A DNA stretch of 64,000 nt from the human T2T-CHM13v2.0 reference genome, Homo sapiens, in NCBI RefSeq assembly GCF_009914755.1, contig NC_060944.1; one strand, 5' to 3'. Of this stretch, positions 27,330-63,550 are shown in pieces. Under the pieces are notes generated by a model. It ran no database searches. It was not told where the DNA came from and saw only the letters and a list, made by a program, of their open reading frames with translations. Each line of letters opens with the position of its first letter. The stretch's first letter is position 1. Made by a program: the position numbers and the translations under genes.

Positions 27330-27800
27330 AGGAGCGTTCACAGCGGTCCGCGGCAGGTGCAAGGGAGGGAAGGCGAGGGGGTCTGGTGGAGCCTGTCTAC
27401 ACTGGGACCTCAGCGGTCTCCCAACTTGGAGGCTTGGGAGAAGAGGATCCCGCCTGTGGTTGACCGGGGGCGCACAGGCGGAGGAGGCGTTACCTTGGGC
27501 GGGAGGGCGAAGACCACCGGCAGCAGCGCGAGCGGCGTGAACAGCAGCACCAGCAGCCGCCGCGCGCTCCACACCTTCTTGGCCGCTGCTGCCAGCGCCG
27601 CCATCAGCGCGATCGCCTGGCGGTACGGGCCGGCCCGGGACTGCCCCGCCTGGCCCCGGCGCCGGCTTAAAGCCTGGGGGAGGGTCGGGGAGGGGACTGC
27701 GCTGGGGAACCCGCCCTCTCCCTGCTCCTCCTGGAGGAAAAGGGTGGTGCCTGCGCCCCTGGGACCGGGTGAAAGAGGCCCGGGAACGTTGGAGAAAGTT
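27330..27800 (-). promoter_or_regulatory. SLC13A3: CpG-island promoter of SLC13A3
   Basis: Dense CpG/GC around exon 1; GC boxes at 27643-27650 and 27711-27716; TATA-like TTTAAG (minus) at 27666-27671, ~65 bp upstream of the ATG. Boundaries approximate. Confidence 0.85.
27494..27604 (-). CDS. SLC13A3: Na+/dicarboxylate cotransporter NaDC3, coding exon 1 (37 aa, phase-0 donor)
   Basis: Translates MAALAAAAKKVWSARRLLVLLFTPLALLPVVFALPPK, the NaDC3 N-terminus. ATG at 27604-27602, 111 nt, then donor AAG|GTAACG at 27494/27493. Exon 2 lies outside the window, so 1-27493 is intron 1. Confidence 0.97.
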
Positions 27801-28072
27801 AGGCACTAGAATTAGCAAACGGGACCCCAGCCGCAGGGCAGTGTGGCCTTGCCTCTTGGCTTCCCAGCAATGTGGCCTGGGGCAGCTGGCTTATCCTCTC
27901 CTCGCCTCTGTTTACTCGCCTGTGAGATGGCTGAGGATGACAAGGCGAGGATTAAGGCGCGTACTCCTATTACCCGGGTTCAAATCCTGGCACGGCCACT
28001 TACTCACTGCGTGGCCTTCAACAACAGCCTCTGAGCCTGAAAGTGGAGTGGTGATAATAATAGTCTACACCA

Positions 28073-33896: not shown

Positions 33897-34283
33897 TGTT
33901 AGGCCGTTTCTGCATTGCTATAAAGAAATATGTGAGGCTGAGTAATTTATAAAGAAAAGAGGTTTAATGAGCTCATCGTTCTGCAAGGTTGTACATGAAA
34001 CATGGCGCTGTCATCTGCTCAGCTTCTGGGGAGGCCTTGGGGAGCTTTTACTCGTGGCAGAAGGCGAACCAGGAGCAGGCAGGTCACATGTCCAGAGCAG
34101 GAGCAAGGCGCTGGGGGGAGGTGCCACACACTTTTAAACAACCAGATTTCCTGAGAACTCATATCTCAAGGACAGCACGGATCCAACCCCATGACCCAAA
34201 CACTTCCCACCAGGCCCCACCTCCAACATTAGGGATTGTATTTCAATATGAGATTTGGACAGGACAAACATCAAAACCATCTC
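33897..34283 (-). mobile_element. MST (MaLR) solo LTR
   Basis: Plus GCATTGCTATAAAGAAATA..TAATTTATAAAGAAAAGAGGTTTAAT..GAGATTTGG..AAACCATCTCA. Confidence 0.85.
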
Positions 34284-46317: not shown

Positions 46318-46500
46318 GATTACCTTGCTTGTCTCCTAGAAGGTGCACTGGGAGGCTTGGGAGGCTGGTGTAGCAGGGACCACCCATATGTAGCTTCCTT
46401 TGGACCTTAGTGCCACTTCCCTGGAATACATGAGCAGCTTTAAAAACAATTCTCAGGCTTCCCTACAGTTGGTGTATCTATAGGATTAAGATCTGGCCAA
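46318..46500 (-). other. Candidate alternative upstream non-coding exon of SLC13A3 (3' end at 46324)
   Basis: Donor CAAG|GTAATC at 46324/46323 in unique sequence beside MLT1 LTR fragments. I recall SLC13A3 having upstream alternative 5' exons. The 5' boundary is a guess. Confidence 0.35.
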
Positions 46501-55024: not shown

Positions 55025-55443
55025 TGACACGGTTTGGAGGTTTGTCCCCTCCAAATCTCAGGTTGAAATGTGACCTCCAGTGTAGGAGGTGGGGCTGGTG
55101 GGAGGTACTGGATCATGGCGGCAGATCCCTCGTGAATGGCTTGGTGCCCTCTCTGTGGTAATCTCTGAGTGAGCCCTGGCTCTGTTAGTTCACAAGACAG
55201 CCAGTTGTTTAAAGGAGCCCGGCTCCTCCCCTTCTCTCTCTTGTTCCTGCTTTCACCATGGGACACTGCCTGCTCCCCCTTTGCCTTCCACCATGATCGG
55301 AAGCTTCCTGAGGCCCTCACCAGAAGCAGATGCTGGAGCCATGCTTGTACAGCCTGCAGAACTGTAAGCCAATTAAGCCTCTTTTCCCTATAAATTACCC
55401 AGCCTCAGGTGTTTCTTTACAGCAATGCAAAAGGCCTAATACA
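55025..55443 (+). mobile_element. MSTB-like solo LTR
   Basis: TGACACGGTTTGGA..TTTGTCCCCTCCAAATCTCA...CTAATACA with perfect TSD CATGC. Confidence 0.9.
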
Positions 55444-58318: not shown

Positions 58319-59425
58319 AGGTGCAGACCCTTGTAAGAACATGGGCTCCTCCATCAGGGCTCTGGCAGTCAGTGACAGCTGGGTTAGGACTAGGGTGAAG
58401 CAAGTGAGGCACAAATTTAAGGAGGCATCCAAAAACTCAATAATCCAAAAAATATCTTAATGGGATGGTTTTAAAAATCAAATTGGCAAACTATCGCCCA
58501 CGGGCCGACTGTCTGATTTGTAAATAAAGTTTTATTGGAACCAGGGTCAGGAATATGGTGGATTCTTGCAGTTAAATCAGAGATTATGCCCTGCATGCCT
58601 TCGCTAATGTAGATGTTCCCAACCCCTAAGGTAGCACGTGGTGTGGGCGTGGTCAGCTCAGCTCATCCAACAATAAGAACACAGCTTGTTTGGAGCACTC
58701 ACTATGCCAGCTTTAAAGCAACTCTACTCTGGAACTACCTCTCTTGGCCCCATGGACTGGCCACAAAAGCACTTTTAAATGTTCCAGGAATGTGGGCCTG
58801 TGTCAAGTGTTGGTCGCATCTCGGTGTCATATCACATTTCCCTGGTTCTGCCATTTACTAACTGAGTGGCCTGGGGCAGGACTTAATTTCTCTGTGTCTC
58901 ATTTGCTTCTTCTGTAAAATGGGTTAATGCATGGAAAGAACGTAACTCTATAAAGTCAGCTGCTGTTGTTAAAAGCATGGGTCTGAATCCCAGCTCTGTC
59001 ACTTATTGTGACCCTAGGACATATTTCCTATTGCCCAGTGTTTCCTCCACCATAAAATGGAGATTATAATCCTCATCTGGTTGGGTTTAGCTGGGGATTC
59101 ACACAAAACTGCTAGTGCTGTTGGCTCAGCACTGCAAAGCACCTGCAGCTCCCCGGTGGACGTCAAGGGATCTGAAAGTGCAGAGGGTTCCTTAGCCCTT
59201 TGTGAGAGGAACTAGGAAAGGAATCCACTGTTCACCTAGGAACATTTGTTAACCCTTTATTTCCCACTGTGGGCCAAGGGCTAAGTGTGCAGATGGACGA
59301 TTCTCCTCCTGGGGGCATTTGTGACGTTTCTCCAGTCTCCAATATCTGCCACTCTCCCTCTTGATACTTGCAAAGATCATTACTGCTTCCTGACAGCTGC
59401 GGCTACCCCCACTGCTACTGGCCAC

Positions 59426-60056
59426 TGATACCGGAGATAGAAATTATTTAGGCAGATATTCAGGGCAAAAGAGTCCTCGGCGGAATTTCCCTTCTAACAA
59501 AAAAGCAGCCCCAGAAATCATTTCTTTTCTAACAAAGAGCAGCCTGAAAAATCCAGCTGCAAACATAGATAAGGAAGCTGGAAGCTTGCACGGGGGAATG
59601 CTGGTAGCTGTGCCAATAGAGAAGGGCTAACTGGGGGCCAGGCATGTCTAACACGAGGCTCCATCTTCCCTTTTCTTTTACCACGTGTACAGTAATAAAG
59701 AAATGGGCAACATGGCACAGCTCAGGCAGAGAACTCGCCTGCATAATAAAAGACTGGGGTGGGGGTGCCGAGATTCATACCCTGTGCCAATGGCACACCT
59801 GGGTCCAACCAGTTTTTCACACCCTATGTAGATCAGACAGCACCTCCTCACCAGCTCATCTATAAAACTCCCTTGCATTTCACTGCAGATCCAGCAACCC
59901 ATTTTTCCAGGACCCCTCTTGTAGCAGAGCGCTATTCTCTTTCTTTCAACTATTAAATTTCTGCTCTTCACCTCACTCTTTGTGGGTCCCTGTCCTTGAT
60001 CTCCGTGACCATGAGACAACGAGCCTCGGGTGTTACCCCCAGACAAGCCTGCTTCT
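59426..60056 (+). mobile_element. ERV1 solo LTR, MER61-like
   Basis: TGATAC..AGAAATTATTTAGGCAGATA..GAGTCCTCGG start, CCCCAGACAA end, 4-bp TSD CCAC (59422-25 / 60057-60), ATTAAA near 3' end. Confidence 0.8.
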
Positions 60057-60661
60057 CCACCGCGTTCCCTGCCTCAGTGGCTGCCAGGTCCTGTGCCAAG
60101 CAGTTGGAGCATGCTCGCCACAGCTTCCACCCTGGCTACTGTTTTTACTGGACCAGCTGGTTTCGGTCGCCTTTTCACTTCCAGGTTTCTTGCTTCCACT
60201 CTTGCCCTCTATGGTTTTCTGCCAGCAACCAATGCAACCCTTTCAAAACAATCAGGTATCACCCTGTTAAAAACCCTGAGTCCCATTAAGAACAAAACCC
60301 AACCTTGTAACAGGGCCCTGCAGGATCCGGCCCCGCCTCTCCCATCTCATGTTCTGCTCCTCCCCCTTGCTCACTAATGCCGGCCACACCAGCCTTGCTG
60401 TCGGGGATGTTTCTTCTTCGCCAACTTCGCACGCCACAGCCTGCCTGGGATATACTCTCTTCATCTCCTGTGTTTCTGGTTTTCCTTCACATCTTCACTC
60501 ATCACTGTCTGAAACTGTCTTATGTTCCCCAGGAAAGTAAGCTTCATGTTCCCCTCTATTAGATCTCCAGTGCCCGGCGCATAGTGAGTACTAGTGTATT
60601 AGTCCGTTCTCACACTGCTGATAAAGACATACCCGAGACCGGGTAATTTATAAAGGAAAAG

Positions 60662-60667
60662 TTTAAT
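60662..60667 (-). terminator. ATTAAA poly(A) signal inside the THE1 LTR, candidate distal PAS of TP53RK
   Basis: Plus TTTAAT at the position of the native MaLR LTR PAS, followed by U/GU-rich sequence on minus. Confidence 0.65.
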
Positions 60668-60674
60668 AACTCAC

Positions 60675-60795
60675 AGTTCAGCATGGCTGGGGATGCCTCA
60701 GAAAACTTATAATCATGGCAGATGGGGAAACAAACACACCCTTCTCCACGTGGCAGCAGGAAGTGCCGAACAAGAGGGAAAAGCCCCTTATAAAA
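60675..60795 (-). promoter_or_regulatory. Candidate LTR promoter and non-coding first exon for a long SLC13A3 transcript
   Basis: TTTTATAAG TATA box 60795-60787, predicted TSS ~60762, donor ACT|GTGAGT at 60675/60674, second donor CGG|GTATGT at 60633/60632. Confidence 0.55.
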
Positions 60796-61547
60796 CCATC
60801 AGATCTCGTGAGAACTCACTCGCTATCACGAGAACAGCACGGAGGTAGCCGCCCCGAGGATTAAATTACCTCCCACTGGGTCCCTCCCATGTCACGTGGG
60901 GATTACGGGAACAATTCAAGATGAGATTTGGATGGGGACACAGCCAAACCCTATCAACTAGGGATTTGTTGACTTAATGCACACGAGCCAACCATACCCC
61001 AACAAAGCAGGTACTAGCCTTATAGTACACGTGAGGAAACTGAGGAATGAGGCATCTCATTCATGTTGGGAATATTAATTGAAAAACCTGTCAGCTCCTG
61101 TGGCCCTTGGAGTTCCTTGAAAATAATGTTATACGCCAATACTTATTATAGTACTGTAAAGATGCACCATATCCCATATCTCATTTGTCAGTGGAAAGAA
61201 CACAGATTTGGAGCCAGGTAAAAGTACCTCTTGCTACCTGTGACGTCTTGGACAAGTTCCCACCTTTTGGGGCCAGTTTCTCCATCTATAAAATGGGGAT
61301 AATGCCTAACTTAAGAGTTATTTTAGATCCAATATAAAAATTCCCAGCCCAATGCCTGGCATGCAGTAAGCAGGCAATTATATTATTTTTCCTCTCTACT
61401 AGTCACAACTACCCAGGAAGGGAAGTTTTCACTCATTCCTGGCCATCCGCCCCATGCTGGGCACTTGGGGCATGCTGACTGTGGTGAATGAAACAGACAG
61501 GGTACTGGTCCTACTATTATAGAATGTTTGCTTCATAAGAACAGGCA

Positions 61548-61910
61548 CTGACTGTATCATCTCTGAACACAATGGAATGAAGCTGGCAATAACAAAAGAA
61601 AAATTGGAACATTTACAAATGTGTGGAAATTAACAGATTTCTAAACAATCAAGGGGTCAAAGAAGAAATCACAAGGGAAATTAGAAAATACTTTGAGATG
61701 AATGAAAACAAAAACACAAAATACCAAAACTGAGAGTGTGTGATGACAACAGTGTGCAGAGGGAAATTCATAGCTGCAAATGTCCATATTAAGAAACAAG
61801 ACAGTAACTATGTGAGGTGATGGGTGTTAATTAGCTCAGCTGTAGCAATCATTTCATAATGTATATCAAAACATCCCACTGTATACTTTATACTTTTTTA
61901 TAAAAATAAA
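61548..61910 (+). mobile_element. L1 fragments inside the TP53RK 3' UTR
   Basis: GTCAAAGAAGAAATCACAAGGGAAATTAGAAAATACTTTGAGATGAATGAAAA (ORF2) followed by an L1M 3' end. Confidence 0.8.
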
Positions 61911-61955
61911 TATTCTTACAAAAGGACAGGCGCTGTGTCTGTCTGGCTCACCATT

Positions 61956-62007
61956 GTACCCAATACCCAACAGGGTGCCAAGTACCCAATACCCAACAGG
62001 GTGCCAA
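61956..62007. repeat. Perfect 26-bp tandem duplication in the TP53RK 3' UTR
   Basis: GTACCCAATACCCAACAGGGTGCCAA x2. Confidence 0.93.
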
Positions 62008-63031
62008 GGAACACAAAAGGCACTCAAAATATGTTTGTTGATTGGAGTTTACAAGGAAGAAAGGTATTTTCTTATCCCTCTCTTCCCTTCCCACCCAAAC
62101 ATAGCTTCTTCTAAGAAAAGAAACTGAGGCTGGGCAAGGTTAAAAGCTAGCTCCTGGTACTTTTGCATCCACACTCAGTTTACCTGTGCCTTAAACCAGA
62201 CTTCATCAAACTTCAGTCTTCACAAGTCACTTCACCATTTTTGCTCTACCTACTTACTGCCTGTGATAGAAATCAACTCAGTTTGTTTAGCGGTATAAAC
62301 TTAAAAGGAACTTTAGATCAATCACTTGTCTTAGAAGGTAACCACAAAAATACAAAGCAATAAAAATAAAAACATGTTAACATGAATTTCAGTTGCCTGA
62401 AAGCTGTAAGTCTGCTTTTTTAAAAGAGAAATTGGAGTTAAGCAGACTTTTCATTTTTTGATCATGACCCTGAAAGAGAAATATATTTGACATCAAAACT
62501 CAGCACATATCCTTGGTCTATATATACACGTGAAAGTTTCATAAAACAATACACTGATATTTTCCATGCTGTATTCTATTTCATTTTTTAAAATGCTGGT
62601 TGTATCCCATTAAACTGGTTTCAAAATAAATATAACATGTACACAACAACAACAAAAAAAAACACTGGGTTAGAGGGCCAGTAAGCTCAGCGAGTATCAG
62701 CAACTGAGACTTCATCCTTGTCTCACAAGGACTAAAAAGAGAATAATGTTCTCATTATGTGGTTCAATGCCACACCCATGTATCTGAGATATACATGTCA
62801 CAATCTGGGAGAAGCCTGTCCTCAATTTACTTTAAATACCCAATTCTGCCTAGAACATGACTTAGACACATAGTAAGCTCTTGAGTGAAGTGCAGATGAT
62901 AATGACACGATCACATACCACTTAAAAATATCTTAACACCTTTACTTAGATCTCATCTCATACTTGTAGCATTTCTTCAAATTTACTTTGAAAAAAGAGC
63001 TTCACTGTGTGTGGTTGTCATACACATTCTT

Positions 63032-63550
<519 letters not shown>

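What the first reader, a model, noticed from the sequence alone, without database searches (positions are those of the whole stretch)
60595..60956. One THE1 LTR may be both the TP53RK terminator and an alternative SLC13A3 promoter
Seen: an intact solo LTR (TSD ACTAG) in the same orientation as both genes. It holds the first canonical PAS after the TP53RK stop (ATTAAA 60667-60662), a TATA box (60795-60787) and two GT donors (60674, 60632). Known: THE1/MaLR LTRs act as alternative promoters (placenta, DUX4-positive cells, CSF1R in Hodgkin lymphoma) and donate poly(A) sites. I recall long SLC13A3 variants reaching the TP53RK 3' end but cannot verify this. Inference: a single primate insertion ends one gene and starts the next, 33 kb upstream of the CpG promoter.
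Basis: partly seen in the sequence, partly recalled or inferred. Interest (0 to 1): 0.8.

Follow-up and report, generated by a model that had tools for sequence, protein, structure and literature searches.

The report
One LTR ends TP53RK, starts SLC13A3
An old retroviral-type repeat sitting between two human genes supplies the end signal of the first gene (TP53RK) and an extra, far-upstream start exon for the second (SLC13A3); this is a tidy example of a well-known way in which such repeats get reused, not a new kind of element.

Summary
60595-60956 (minus strand) is a 362-nt solo LTR with TG...CA ends and a perfect 5-bp duplication. It belongs to a family with thousands of genomic copies. Its ATTAAA is the first canonical poly(A) hexamer after the TP53RK stop, and the annotated TP53RK end lies 18 nt behind it. 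The annotated alternative SLC13A3 first exon (60764-60675) starts on one of only two initiator-like matches in the LTR, 28 nt after the TATA. It ends at a GTGAGT donor 7 nt before the poly(A) signal.

TATA, donor and poly(A) signal are inherited family features; 40 of 83 other copies keep all three. What is special is the position between two same-strand genes, plus a CpG footprint. This copy holds 13 CpGs (observed/expected 0.62), against a median of 3 and a maximum of 10 in 83 relatives, in CpG-poor flanks. That suggests long-term germline hypomethylation.

The LTR-first mRNA carries two short upstream ORFs and can only encode NaDC3 lacking its first 47 residues. A TP53RK-SLC13A3 read-through ('conjoined gene') is on record and uses the same kind of junction, so promoter autonomy remains inferred. 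I had no CAGE, 3'-end or long-read data. Verdict: a real, already annotated, new member of a known kind; moderate interest.

The parts
60957..60961 (-). Upstream copy of the 5-bp target-site duplication (CTAGT on minus)
60595..60956 (-). Solo LTR, 362 nt, TG...CA ends, THE1-type MaLR family (family name recalled, not tested against a repeat library)
60590..60594 (-). Downstream copy of the target-site duplication (CTAGT)
60765..60956 (-). U3-equivalent part (192 nt), inferred promoter region; holds 9 of the 13 CpGs
   Evidence: boundaries inferred from the annotated exon start
60858..60868 (-). Homeobox-type site TAATTTAATCC; ends AATCA in 75 of 85 other copies, AATCC here
60787..60795 (-). 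TATA box TTTTATAAG; T of TATAA at 60792
   Evidence: exact 9-mer in 26 of 39 copies; TATAA in 63 of 83
60675..60764 (-). Annotated alternative first exon of SLC13A3 (90 nt). It starts at the A of an initiator-like match GGCACT and holds two upstream ATGs (60716-60714 and 60684-60682).
   Evidence: hub gene table
60669..60674 (-). Splice donor GTGAGT used by the alternative exon, 7 nt upstream of the poly(A) hexamer
   Evidence: ACTGTGAGT in 28 of 39; GTGAGT in 59 of 83
60662..60667 (-). Poly(A) signal ATTAAA, first canonical hexamer after the TP53RK stop
   Evidence: 33 of 39; 74 of 83
60644..60644 (-). Annotated 3' end of TP53RK mRNA (R/U5 border of the LTR; R = 60764-60644, 121 nt)
   Evidence: hub gene table; spacing
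60611..60634 (-). G/U-rich stretch behind the cleavage site (likely downstream element). It includes the second GT (60632-60631), where no exon in the hub's gene table ends.
   Evidence: sequence read directly
60644..63510 (-). TP53RK last exon; coding part 63032-63510, 3' UTR 63031-60644 (2,388 nt), of which the last 313 nt are LTR
   Evidence: hub gene table
46324..46420 (-). Second alternative SLC13A3 exon (97 nt), single copy in the genome, good acceptor (TTCCAG|) and donor (|GTAATC). Its ATG opens an 87-codon out-of-frame ORF.
   Evidence: hub gene table
27494..27642 (-). Canonical SLC13A3 exon 1 in the CpG island (start codon at 27604; ends in phase 0)
   Evidence: hub gene table

Best explanation
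A solo THE1-type MaLR LTR inserted roughly 30-45 million years ago, in sense orientation, between TP53RK and SLC13A3. The two genes now use its native U3-R-U5 signals.

(1) Transcripts arriving from TP53RK are cleaved and polyadenylated at the LTR's own R/U5 border: ATTAAA at 60667-60662, cleavage at 60644. The LTR is thus the TP53RK terminator.

(2) Transcription can also begin in the same LTR at its own U3/R border (TATA at 60792, start at 60764). Such RNAs use the GTGAGT donor at 60674, which lies 7 nt before the poly(A) signal. The signal is therefore spliced out with the intron, and the 90-nt LTR exon is joined to SLC13A3 exons 14 kb and/or 71 kb downstream.

(3) The same donor also lets a minority of TP53RK transcripts that escape cleavage splice into SLC13A3. 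This is the recorded 'conjoined gene'.

The LTR-first mRNA skips the canonical start codon. After two short upstream ORFs it can only encode NaDC3 starting at Met48, without the first predicted membrane helix.

Shown here: the anatomy, the family origin of the signals, the annotation-to-signal spacing and the CpG footprint. Inferred: promoter autonomy, the tissue of use, and the choice between splicing and cleavage.
For: - Solo LTR with duplication and family.
- A 2,320-bp two-LTR family member exists.
- The signals are inherited. TATAA is kept in 63, GTGAGT in 59 and ATTAAA in 74 of 83 other copies; 40 of 83 keep all three (9-mer counts).
- First canonical hexamer after the stop; the annotated TP53RK end lies 18 nt behind it; the next AATAAA is at 59261.
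- The annotated exon start at 60764 is the A of one of only two initiator-like matches in 362 nt, 28 nt after the TATA.
- CpG counts: 13 here (o/e 0.62) against median 3, maximum 10 and o/e maximum 0.47 in 83 copies.
- Of 12 clearly ancestral CpG sites, 7 are kept here, against median 2 and maximum 6 in 39 copies. Flanks have o/e 0.12-0.35.
- TG+CA count is 49, against 51-66 in the others. The GC excess is explained by the retained CpGs.
- Within the window, only the canonical CpG-island tiles reach o/e 0.6.
- Splicing in silico gives MLN-stop across the junction, then an in-frame Met48.
- A TP53RK-SLC13A3 entry, CGHSA0579, appears in a review table.
- THE1B and other MaLR LTR promoters are established: CSF1R, IL33, ERBB4 (passages seen).
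Against: - I could reach no CAGE/RAMPAGE data, 3'-end data, long reads or methylation data. Promoter use rests on the RefSeq exon start, core-promoter geometry and a CpG footprint.
- A read-through RNA would give the same kind of exon junction, and its truncated cDNA could mimic a first exon.
- In Qin et al. 2015 Table 1, TP53RK-SLC13A3 has 'N' under Sanger sequencing, so even the read-through is weakly documented.
- The LTR/flank CpG ratio (2.39) is reached by 2 of 55 other copies.
- The 83 copies are the best-scoring of thousands, not a random sample.
- This copy lacks 3-9 nt just after the start site compared with many relatives. It also has a changed homeobox-type site.
- Neither gene name occurs in the supplements of the DUX4/MaLR study.
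- The product would be an N-terminally truncated transporter behind two upstream ORFs, so biological use is doubtful.
Confidence: 0.6

Rival explanations
1. Terminator only. The LTR gives TP53RK its poly(A) site, but it is not an autonomous promoter. The 'first exon' 60764-60675 is the 5'-incomplete trace of TP53RK transcripts that escaped cleavage and used the LTR donor to splice into SLC13A3 (a conjoined gene, or cis-splicing of adjacent genes).
For: - ConjoinG entry CGHSA0579 TP53RK-SLC13A3 is listed with read-through RNA 'YES' in a review table.
- The fusion was a candidate in prostate RNA-seq.
- A consensus-like donor sits 7 nt before the poly(A) signal inside the TP53RK 3' UTR.
- No capped-end data were seen.
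Against: - A random cDNA truncation would have to fall exactly on the A of one of two initiator-like matches, 28 nt after a TATA box. That is roughly 1 chance in 282 positions upstream of the donor within the LTR.
- The CpG retention concentrated in U3 is not expected in a transcribed, normally methylated 3' UTR.
- The fusion has 'N' under Sanger sequencing in Qin et al. Table 1.
- A fusion RNA would carry the TP53RK stop about 2.4 kb before an exon junction. By established knowledge of nonsense-mediated decay it should be unstable.
Confidence: 0.22
2. Real but idle promoter. The LTR does fire occasionally (testis, placenta, tumours, cell lines), giving the annotated variants. These are by-products with no role for SLC13A3. 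The CpG richness comes from the neighbourhood, such as the RefSeq enhancer at 59579-60090 or the transcription-termination zone, and not from promoter use.
For: - Two upstream ORFs precede the coding start, and with the 46-kb exon an 87-codon overlapping ORF is added.
- The only reachable in-frame start is Met48, which removes the first 47 residues.
- 40 of 83 sampled copies keep all three signals, so the potential is generic.
- The flank next to the enhancer has a somewhat raised CpG o/e of 0.35.
- 2 of 55 other copies reach the same LTR/flank ratio.
- No paper ties the LTR to SLC13A3 biology.
Against: - The LTR's o/e (0.62) is well above both flanks (0.35 and 0.16).
- The CpGs cluster in U3.
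- RefSeq curated the variants as NM records, according to the hub table.
Confidence: 0.4
3. Annotation coincidence. Neither end is truly set by the LTR. TP53RK mostly ends at weaker upstream hexamers, and the annotated ends reflect a few cDNAs.
For: Non-canonical hexamers lie in the 3' UTR: AGTAAA at 62987, 62946 and 62831; TATAAA at 61902 and 61892. I saw no 3'-end sequencing.
Against: - The hub table lists a single TP53RK transcript (1 of 1), and it ends 18 nt after the only canonical hexamer in 2.4 kb.
- The hexamer is a family-conserved poly(A) signal, present in 74 of 83 copies.
- A G/U-rich stretch lies behind the cleavage site.
Confidence: 0.05

Closest known systems
THE1B LTR promoter of CSF1R in Hodgkin lymphoma, and MaLR LTR promoters of IL33 (MSTD) and ERBB4 (passages in reviews PMC13709765 and PMC13690279)
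   Same: A sense-oriented MaLR LTR far upstream of a gene supplies a start site and an LTR-derived first exon that splices into the gene.
   Different: Those cases are disease-activated and experimentally mapped (5' RACE, methylation). Here there is only annotation plus sequence evidence. The protein would be N-terminally shortened, as in LTR-IL33 and unlike CSF1R. The same LTR also terminates the upstream gene.
Transposable-element-derived poly(A) sites (Lee, Ji and Tian 2008, PMC2553571; Conley and Jordan 2012, PMC3517506). Only the search listing and the start of each abstract were seen.
   Same: A sense-oriented LTR's own poly(A) signal becomes the 3' end of a host gene.
   Different: Here it is the only TP53RK 3' end in the hub's gene table, TP53RK being (from recall) a broadly expressed gene. 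The same R region is also used as a first exon by the next gene.
Native retroviral LTR logic (U3-R-U5), with bypass of the promoter-proximal poly(A) site, as in the HIV-1 5' LTR through promoter proximity and U1 snRNP at the major splice donor (recalled, not from a call)
   Same: One repeat holds promoter, start site and poly(A) site. RNAs starting in it must ignore the poly(A) site 97 nt downstream, while RNAs arriving from upstream use it.
   Different: Here the donor lies inside R, 7 nt upstream of the hexamer. Splicing physically removes the signal. The 'provirus' is replaced by two host genes.
Conjoined genes / cis-splicing of adjacent genes: ConjoinG CGHSA0579 TP53RK-SLC13A3 (table in PMC6862657; candidate in PMC4450057)
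   Same: The same two genes on the same strand, with a junction from the TP53RK 3' region into SLC13A3.
   Different: In the passages I saw, those sources treat it as read-through and do not mention the LTR. The fusion has 'N' under Sanger sequencing in PMC4450057 Table 1.
MaLR LTR promoters in mouse oocytes and zygotes (Franke et al. 2017, PMC5538554, listing only), and MT2B2-Cdk2ap1 giving an N-terminally truncated isoform (review table)
   Same: The same superfamily of LTRs gives germline or early-embryo first exons and shortened proteins. This fits the germline-type CpG footprint found here.
   Different: Different species and subfamilies; stage of use here is unknown.

Membership tests
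THE1-type MaLR solo LTR | TG...CA termini | tested here: met
   Starts TGATAG and ends AATACA.
THE1-type MaLR solo LTR | 5-bp target-site duplication directly flanking a single LTR (solo state) | tested here: met
   CTAGT at 60961-60957 and 60594-60590.
THE1-type MaLR solo LTR | Member of a dispersed high-copy family of LTRs about 350-380 nt long | tested here: met
   7,946 first-look candidates; the 39 other scored copies are 83-86% identical. The 39 aligned copies measure 347-379 nt.
THE1-type MaLR solo LTR | Family also occurs as elements of about 2.3 kb bounded by two LTRs (this size is recalled for THE1) | tested here: met
   C23:77990299-77992618 is 2,320 bp, with LTRs 89.5% alike and flanks AACAG/AATAG.
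THE1-type MaLR solo LTR | Match to the curated THE1 reference and subfamily assignment (A/B/C/D) | not testable with these tools
   No repeat library (Dfam/Repbase) is on hand. The name THE1 rests on my recall of the family's termini and size.
LTR-derived alternative promoter | Core promoter: TATA box and initiator at proper spacing in U3/R | tested here: met
   TATAA at 60792-60788. An initiator-like match has its A at 60764, 28 nt downstream, and is one of two such matches in the LTR. The initiator pattern is recalled.
LTR-derived alternative promoter | Host transcript whose 5' end lies at the LTR start site and splices into host exons | tested here: met
   The hub gene table gives exon 60675-60764. 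The donor GTGAGT and the acceptor of exon 2 (CTGCAG|GAAGGC) were read.
LTR-derived alternative promoter | Capped 5' ends (CAGE/RAMPAGE/5' RACE) and independence from upstream transcription | not testable with these tools
   No expression data are available.
LTR-derived alternative promoter | Unmethylated state in some cell type | tested here: inconclusive
   Indirect evidence only: CpG o/e 0.62 against a maximum of 0.47 in 83 copies, and flanks at 0.12-0.35.
TE-derived poly(A) site | Canonical hexamer 10-30 nt before the mRNA end, with a G/U-rich element behind it | tested here: met
   ATTAAA at 60667-60662, mRNA end at 60644, G/U-rich stretch at 60634-60611.
TE-derived poly(A) site | 3'-end reads at the site | not testable with these tools
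   Only the RefSeq end from the hub table is available.
Conjoined gene (read-through) TP53RK-SLC13A3 | RNA molecules holding exons of both genes | tested here: inconclusive
   Listed in ConjoinG according to a review table. 'N' under Sanger sequencing in PMC4450057 Table 1. The ConjoinG source paper could not be opened.
DUX4-activated MaLR promoter | Intact double-homeobox site, and presence among DUX4-induced MaLR transcripts | tested here: not met
   The site ends AATCC here but AATCA in 75 of 85 copies. There are 0 occurrences of either gene name in the 7 supplementary files of PMC3836709. The motif itself is recalled.

The most novel reading that the evidence does not exclude
The donor-next-to-poly(A)-signal arrangement (GTGAGT 7 nt before ATTAAA; the donor is kept in 59 and the signal in 74 of 83 copies) may be an ancestral THE1 device that senses where a transcript began. 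RNAs capped 90 nt upstream splice and so delete the signal. RNAs arriving from far upstream are cleaved.

At this locus the host may have kept it for 30-45 million years as a combined insulator and germline or early-embryo promoter. It would stop TP53RK transcription from running into SLC13A3, while giving SLC13A3 a second, hypomethylated start. That start would make a Met48 form of the NaDC3 transporter with its own role.
Probability: 0.15. Interest if true: 0.6.

Novelty: new member of a known kind. Interest (0 to 1): 0.35.

Why it matters
The hub table lists one TP53RK transcript, and its 3' end comes from this LTR. From recall, TP53RK is a broadly expressed KEOPS-complex kinase. The LTR's age estimated here (about 30-45 million years) suggests a primate-lineage insertion, but I could not test that against other species. 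So the 3' UTR length and the regulation of TP53RK probably differ between species with and without the LTR.

For SLC13A3 (recalled as a dicarboxylate transporter of kidney and brain), the LTR adds a start 33 kb upstream that bypasses the canonical start codon. Expression, GWAS or tumour signals mapped to 'TP53RK 3' UTR' or 'SLC13A3 upstream' may really concern this one element.

The locus is also a natural test bed for how one R region is read as 'splice' or as 'cleave' depending on where the RNA began. None of this is a new principle.

Tried and rejected
1. Earlier scan notes: the search of earlier findings was not open.

2. Literature for this locus.
- SLC13A3+THE1: 2 papers, both irrelevant by title and abstract.
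- TP53RK+THE1: 0 papers.
- SLC13A3+LTR: 3 papers. I read passages of the rhesus cDNA paper; the other two were judged from title and abstract, or from the passages. None links the LTR to either gene.
- SLC13A3+'transposable element': 12 papers. SLC13A3+'alternative promoter': 9 papers. Both sets were judged by title and abstract only, and none is relevant.
- Dual-use solo LTR wording: 29 papers held the terms and 12 were listed, with no mammalian precedent among those 12.

Their supplements may well list this LTR.

4. DUX4 activation is not favoured.

5. GC-biased conversion as the cause of the CpG excess is rejected. The GC excess (0.481 against a median of 0.449) is about what some 10 extra retained CpGs give, and TG+CA is correspondingly low.

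6. Repeat origin of exon 46324-46420 is rejected; it is single copy.

7. The LTR's ATGs do not give a chimeric protein. Both ORFs stop (12 and 3 codons; 7 codons with the 46-kb exon).

8. Two wrong reading frames for the TP53RK exon were discarded.

Full report
**What is there.** On the minus strand, 60956-60595 is a 362-nt repeat that begins TGATAG and ends AATACA. It is bracketed by a perfect 5-bp duplication: CTAGT at 60961-60957 and at 60594-60590. Because the duplication touches both ends of a single LTR, it is a solo LTR.

A search of the window's own genome found 7,946 first-look candidates. Of the 40 scored, 39 are other copies at 83-86% identity, nearly all full length. Two further searches with other copies as queries gave 9,894 and 7,086 candidates.

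The family also occurs as a 2,320-bp element with two LTRs that are 89.5% alike and have near-identical 5-bp flanks, at C23:77990299-77992618. Termini, size, duplication length and the 2.3-kb full-length form agree with what I recall of THE1 (MaLR). No repeat library was available, so the family name and the subfamily were not tested.

Mean pairwise K2P distance is 0.13, both for this copy against 39 others and for 150 random pairs among the 39. At assumed rates of 1.5-2.2e-9 per site per year this gives about 30-45 million years.

**The signals and the annotation.**
- The segment 63508-63032 (minus) translates to a C-terminal kinase half ending in a stop (Pfam Kdo 7.7e-10, Pkinase 1.3e-7).
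- From there down to 60300 the only AATAAA or ATTAAA is the LTR's ATTAAA at 60667-60662.
- The hub's gene table ends TP53RK at 60644, 18 nt behind the hexamer. A G/U-rich stretch follows at 60634-60611.
- The next canonical hexamer is at 59261.
- The table also lists an SLC13A3 exon at 60764-60675. Its start is the A of GGCACT, one of only two initiator-like matches in the whole LTR, 28 nt after the T of TATAA at 60792.
- The exon's end abuts GTGAGT (60674-60669), 7 nt before the poly(A) hexamer.

Read as a retroviral LTR, this gives U3 = 60956-60765, R = 60764-60644 (121 nt) and U5 = 60643-60595. Both host genes use the LTR's own landmarks.

**Are the signals special to this copy? No.**
- Among 39 copies, the 9-mer TATA is exact in 26, ACTGTGAGT in 28 and ATTAAA in 33.
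- Among 83 de-duplicated near-full-length copies, TATAA is kept in 63, GTGAGT in 59 and ATTAAA in 74. All three are kept in 40.

The potential is therefore generic to the family. What is particular here is the position, in sense orientation between two same-strand genes.

**A footprint that is special.**
- This copy has 13 CpGs (observed/expected 0.62).
- The 83 other copies have a median of 3 and a maximum of 10, with o/e median 0.15 and maximum 0.47. None reaches this copy. That includes the 46 copies chosen by likeness to two other family members rather than to this one.
- Twelve sites show the CG/TG/CA mixture expected of ancestral CpGs. This copy keeps 7 of them, against a median of 2 and a maximum of 6 in 39 copies. 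It also has CpGs where most relatives have CA, TG or GG.
- The flanks are CpG-poor (o/e 0.12-0.35).
- In a tiling of the whole window, only the canonical SLC13A3 CpG island reaches 0.6.
- Nine of the 13 CpGs lie in U3.
- The GC excess (0.481 against a median of 0.449) is about what the retained CpGs give, and TG+CA is the lowest of all (49 against 51-66). Biased gene conversion is therefore not needed.

The simplest reading is long-term low methylation in the germline, as expected of an element that is active or bound there.

Limits of this evidence:
- The LTR/flank ratio (2.39) is reached by 2 of 55 copies.
- The sample is the best-scoring fraction of thousands of copies.
- A RefSeq enhancer lies 500 bp away (hub table).

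**What the LTR-first RNA could encode.** SLC13A3 exon 2 lies outside the window, at chr20:48349888-48349623 (window -10112 to -10377), and starts in phase 0.

Spliced to it, the LTR exon gives two short ORFs. The first is MIISFLRHPQPC-stop, from the ATG at 60716. The second is MLN-stop, from the ATG at 60684, with the stop formed across the junction. The next ATG is the in-frame Met that is residue 48 of the canonical reading frame.

With the single-copy exon 46324-46420 included, an 87-codon out-of-frame ORF overlaps that Met. The product would lack the first 47 residues, including the hydrophobic stretch encoded by exon 1. I recall a shorter RefSeq isoform of this kind but could not check it.

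**Rival reading.** A review table lists ConjoinG entry CGHSA0579 TP53RK-SLC13A3 with read-through RNA 'YES' (PMC6862657, passage seen). Qin et al. 2015 list the pair as a candidate with 'N' under Sanger sequencing (PMC4450057, Table 1 seen).

A TP53RK RNA that escapes cleavage could use the same donor. The 60675 junction therefore does not prove a promoter, and a 5'-incomplete cDNA could mimic a first exon.

Against this rival stand the exact coincidence of the annotated start with the TATA-initiator geometry and the U3 CpG footprint. I rate an autonomous promoter, with read-through as a by-product, at 0.6 and read-through only at about 0.2.

Whether the promoter matters biologically is a separate and open question.

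DUX4-driven use is not favoured. The homeobox-type site ends AATCC here but AATCA in 75 of 85 relatives. Neither gene name occurs in the 7 supplementary files of the DUX4/MaLR study (PMC3836709).

**Known or new.** MaLR/THE1B LTR promoters are established: CSF1R, IL33, ERBB4 (review passages). TE-derived poly(A) sites are too (PMC2553571 and PMC3517506, listings only). Both transcript ends are already in RefSeq.

None of my ten literature searches found a paper that ties this LTR to either gene, or that describes one solo LTR serving two adjacent human genes in this way. Supplements of large TE-TSS atlases could not be opened (paper reading closed).

I file it as a new member of a known kind. 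It has one modestly original addition, the CpG footprint, and one mechanistic point worth testing: the donor 7 nt before the poly(A) signal as the switch between 'splice' and 'cleave'.

Noticed in passing
window 33899-34181 (-) and 55025-55443 (+): Two older, partial relatives of the LTR (73-79% identity over 46-99 nt pieces), presumably more ancient MaLR fragments in SLC13A3 intron 1.
   Followed up: no
window 46324-46420 (-): The second alternative SLC13A3 exon is single copy in the genome, with good splice sites. Its ATG opens an 87-codon out-of-frame ORF that overlaps the Met48 start, so it should dampen translation of that form.
   Followed up: partly
L036/L061 (G000:C23:77990299-77992618): A full-length two-LTR member of the family: 2,320 bp, LTRs 89.5% alike, flanks AACAG/AATAG.
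   Followed up: partly
window 60912, 60759, 60749 (-): This copy is about 11 nt shorter than most relatives. It lacks 3 nt near 60912 (seen against 32 of 39 copies) and 3-9 nt just downstream of the start site. The effect on start-site use is unknown.
   Followed up: no
literature: PMC6862657 table: In colorectal tumours against normal mucosa the table gives an RNA-seq fold change of 20.3 for SLC13A3 and 2.39 for TP53RK. Whether the LTR start drives this rise is untested.
   Followed up: no
literature: PMC2996955: A rhesus placenta full-length cDNA (FS723142, 4 exons) is listed as an unknown transcript inside an SLC13A3 intron. It could bear on placental use of upstream starts.
   Followed up: no
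literature: PMC10115645 and PMC13228371 (listing only): Perivascular-space GWAS papers mention SLC13A3 many times and TP53RK as well. The associated variants might lie in the 33-kb stretch between the LTR and the CpG promoter.
   Followed up: no
window 27332-27874: Only the tiles over canonical SLC13A3 exon 1 reach CpG o/e 0.6 or more in a 362-nt tiling of the window (0.81 and 0.72). The window median is 0.18.
   Followed up: yes
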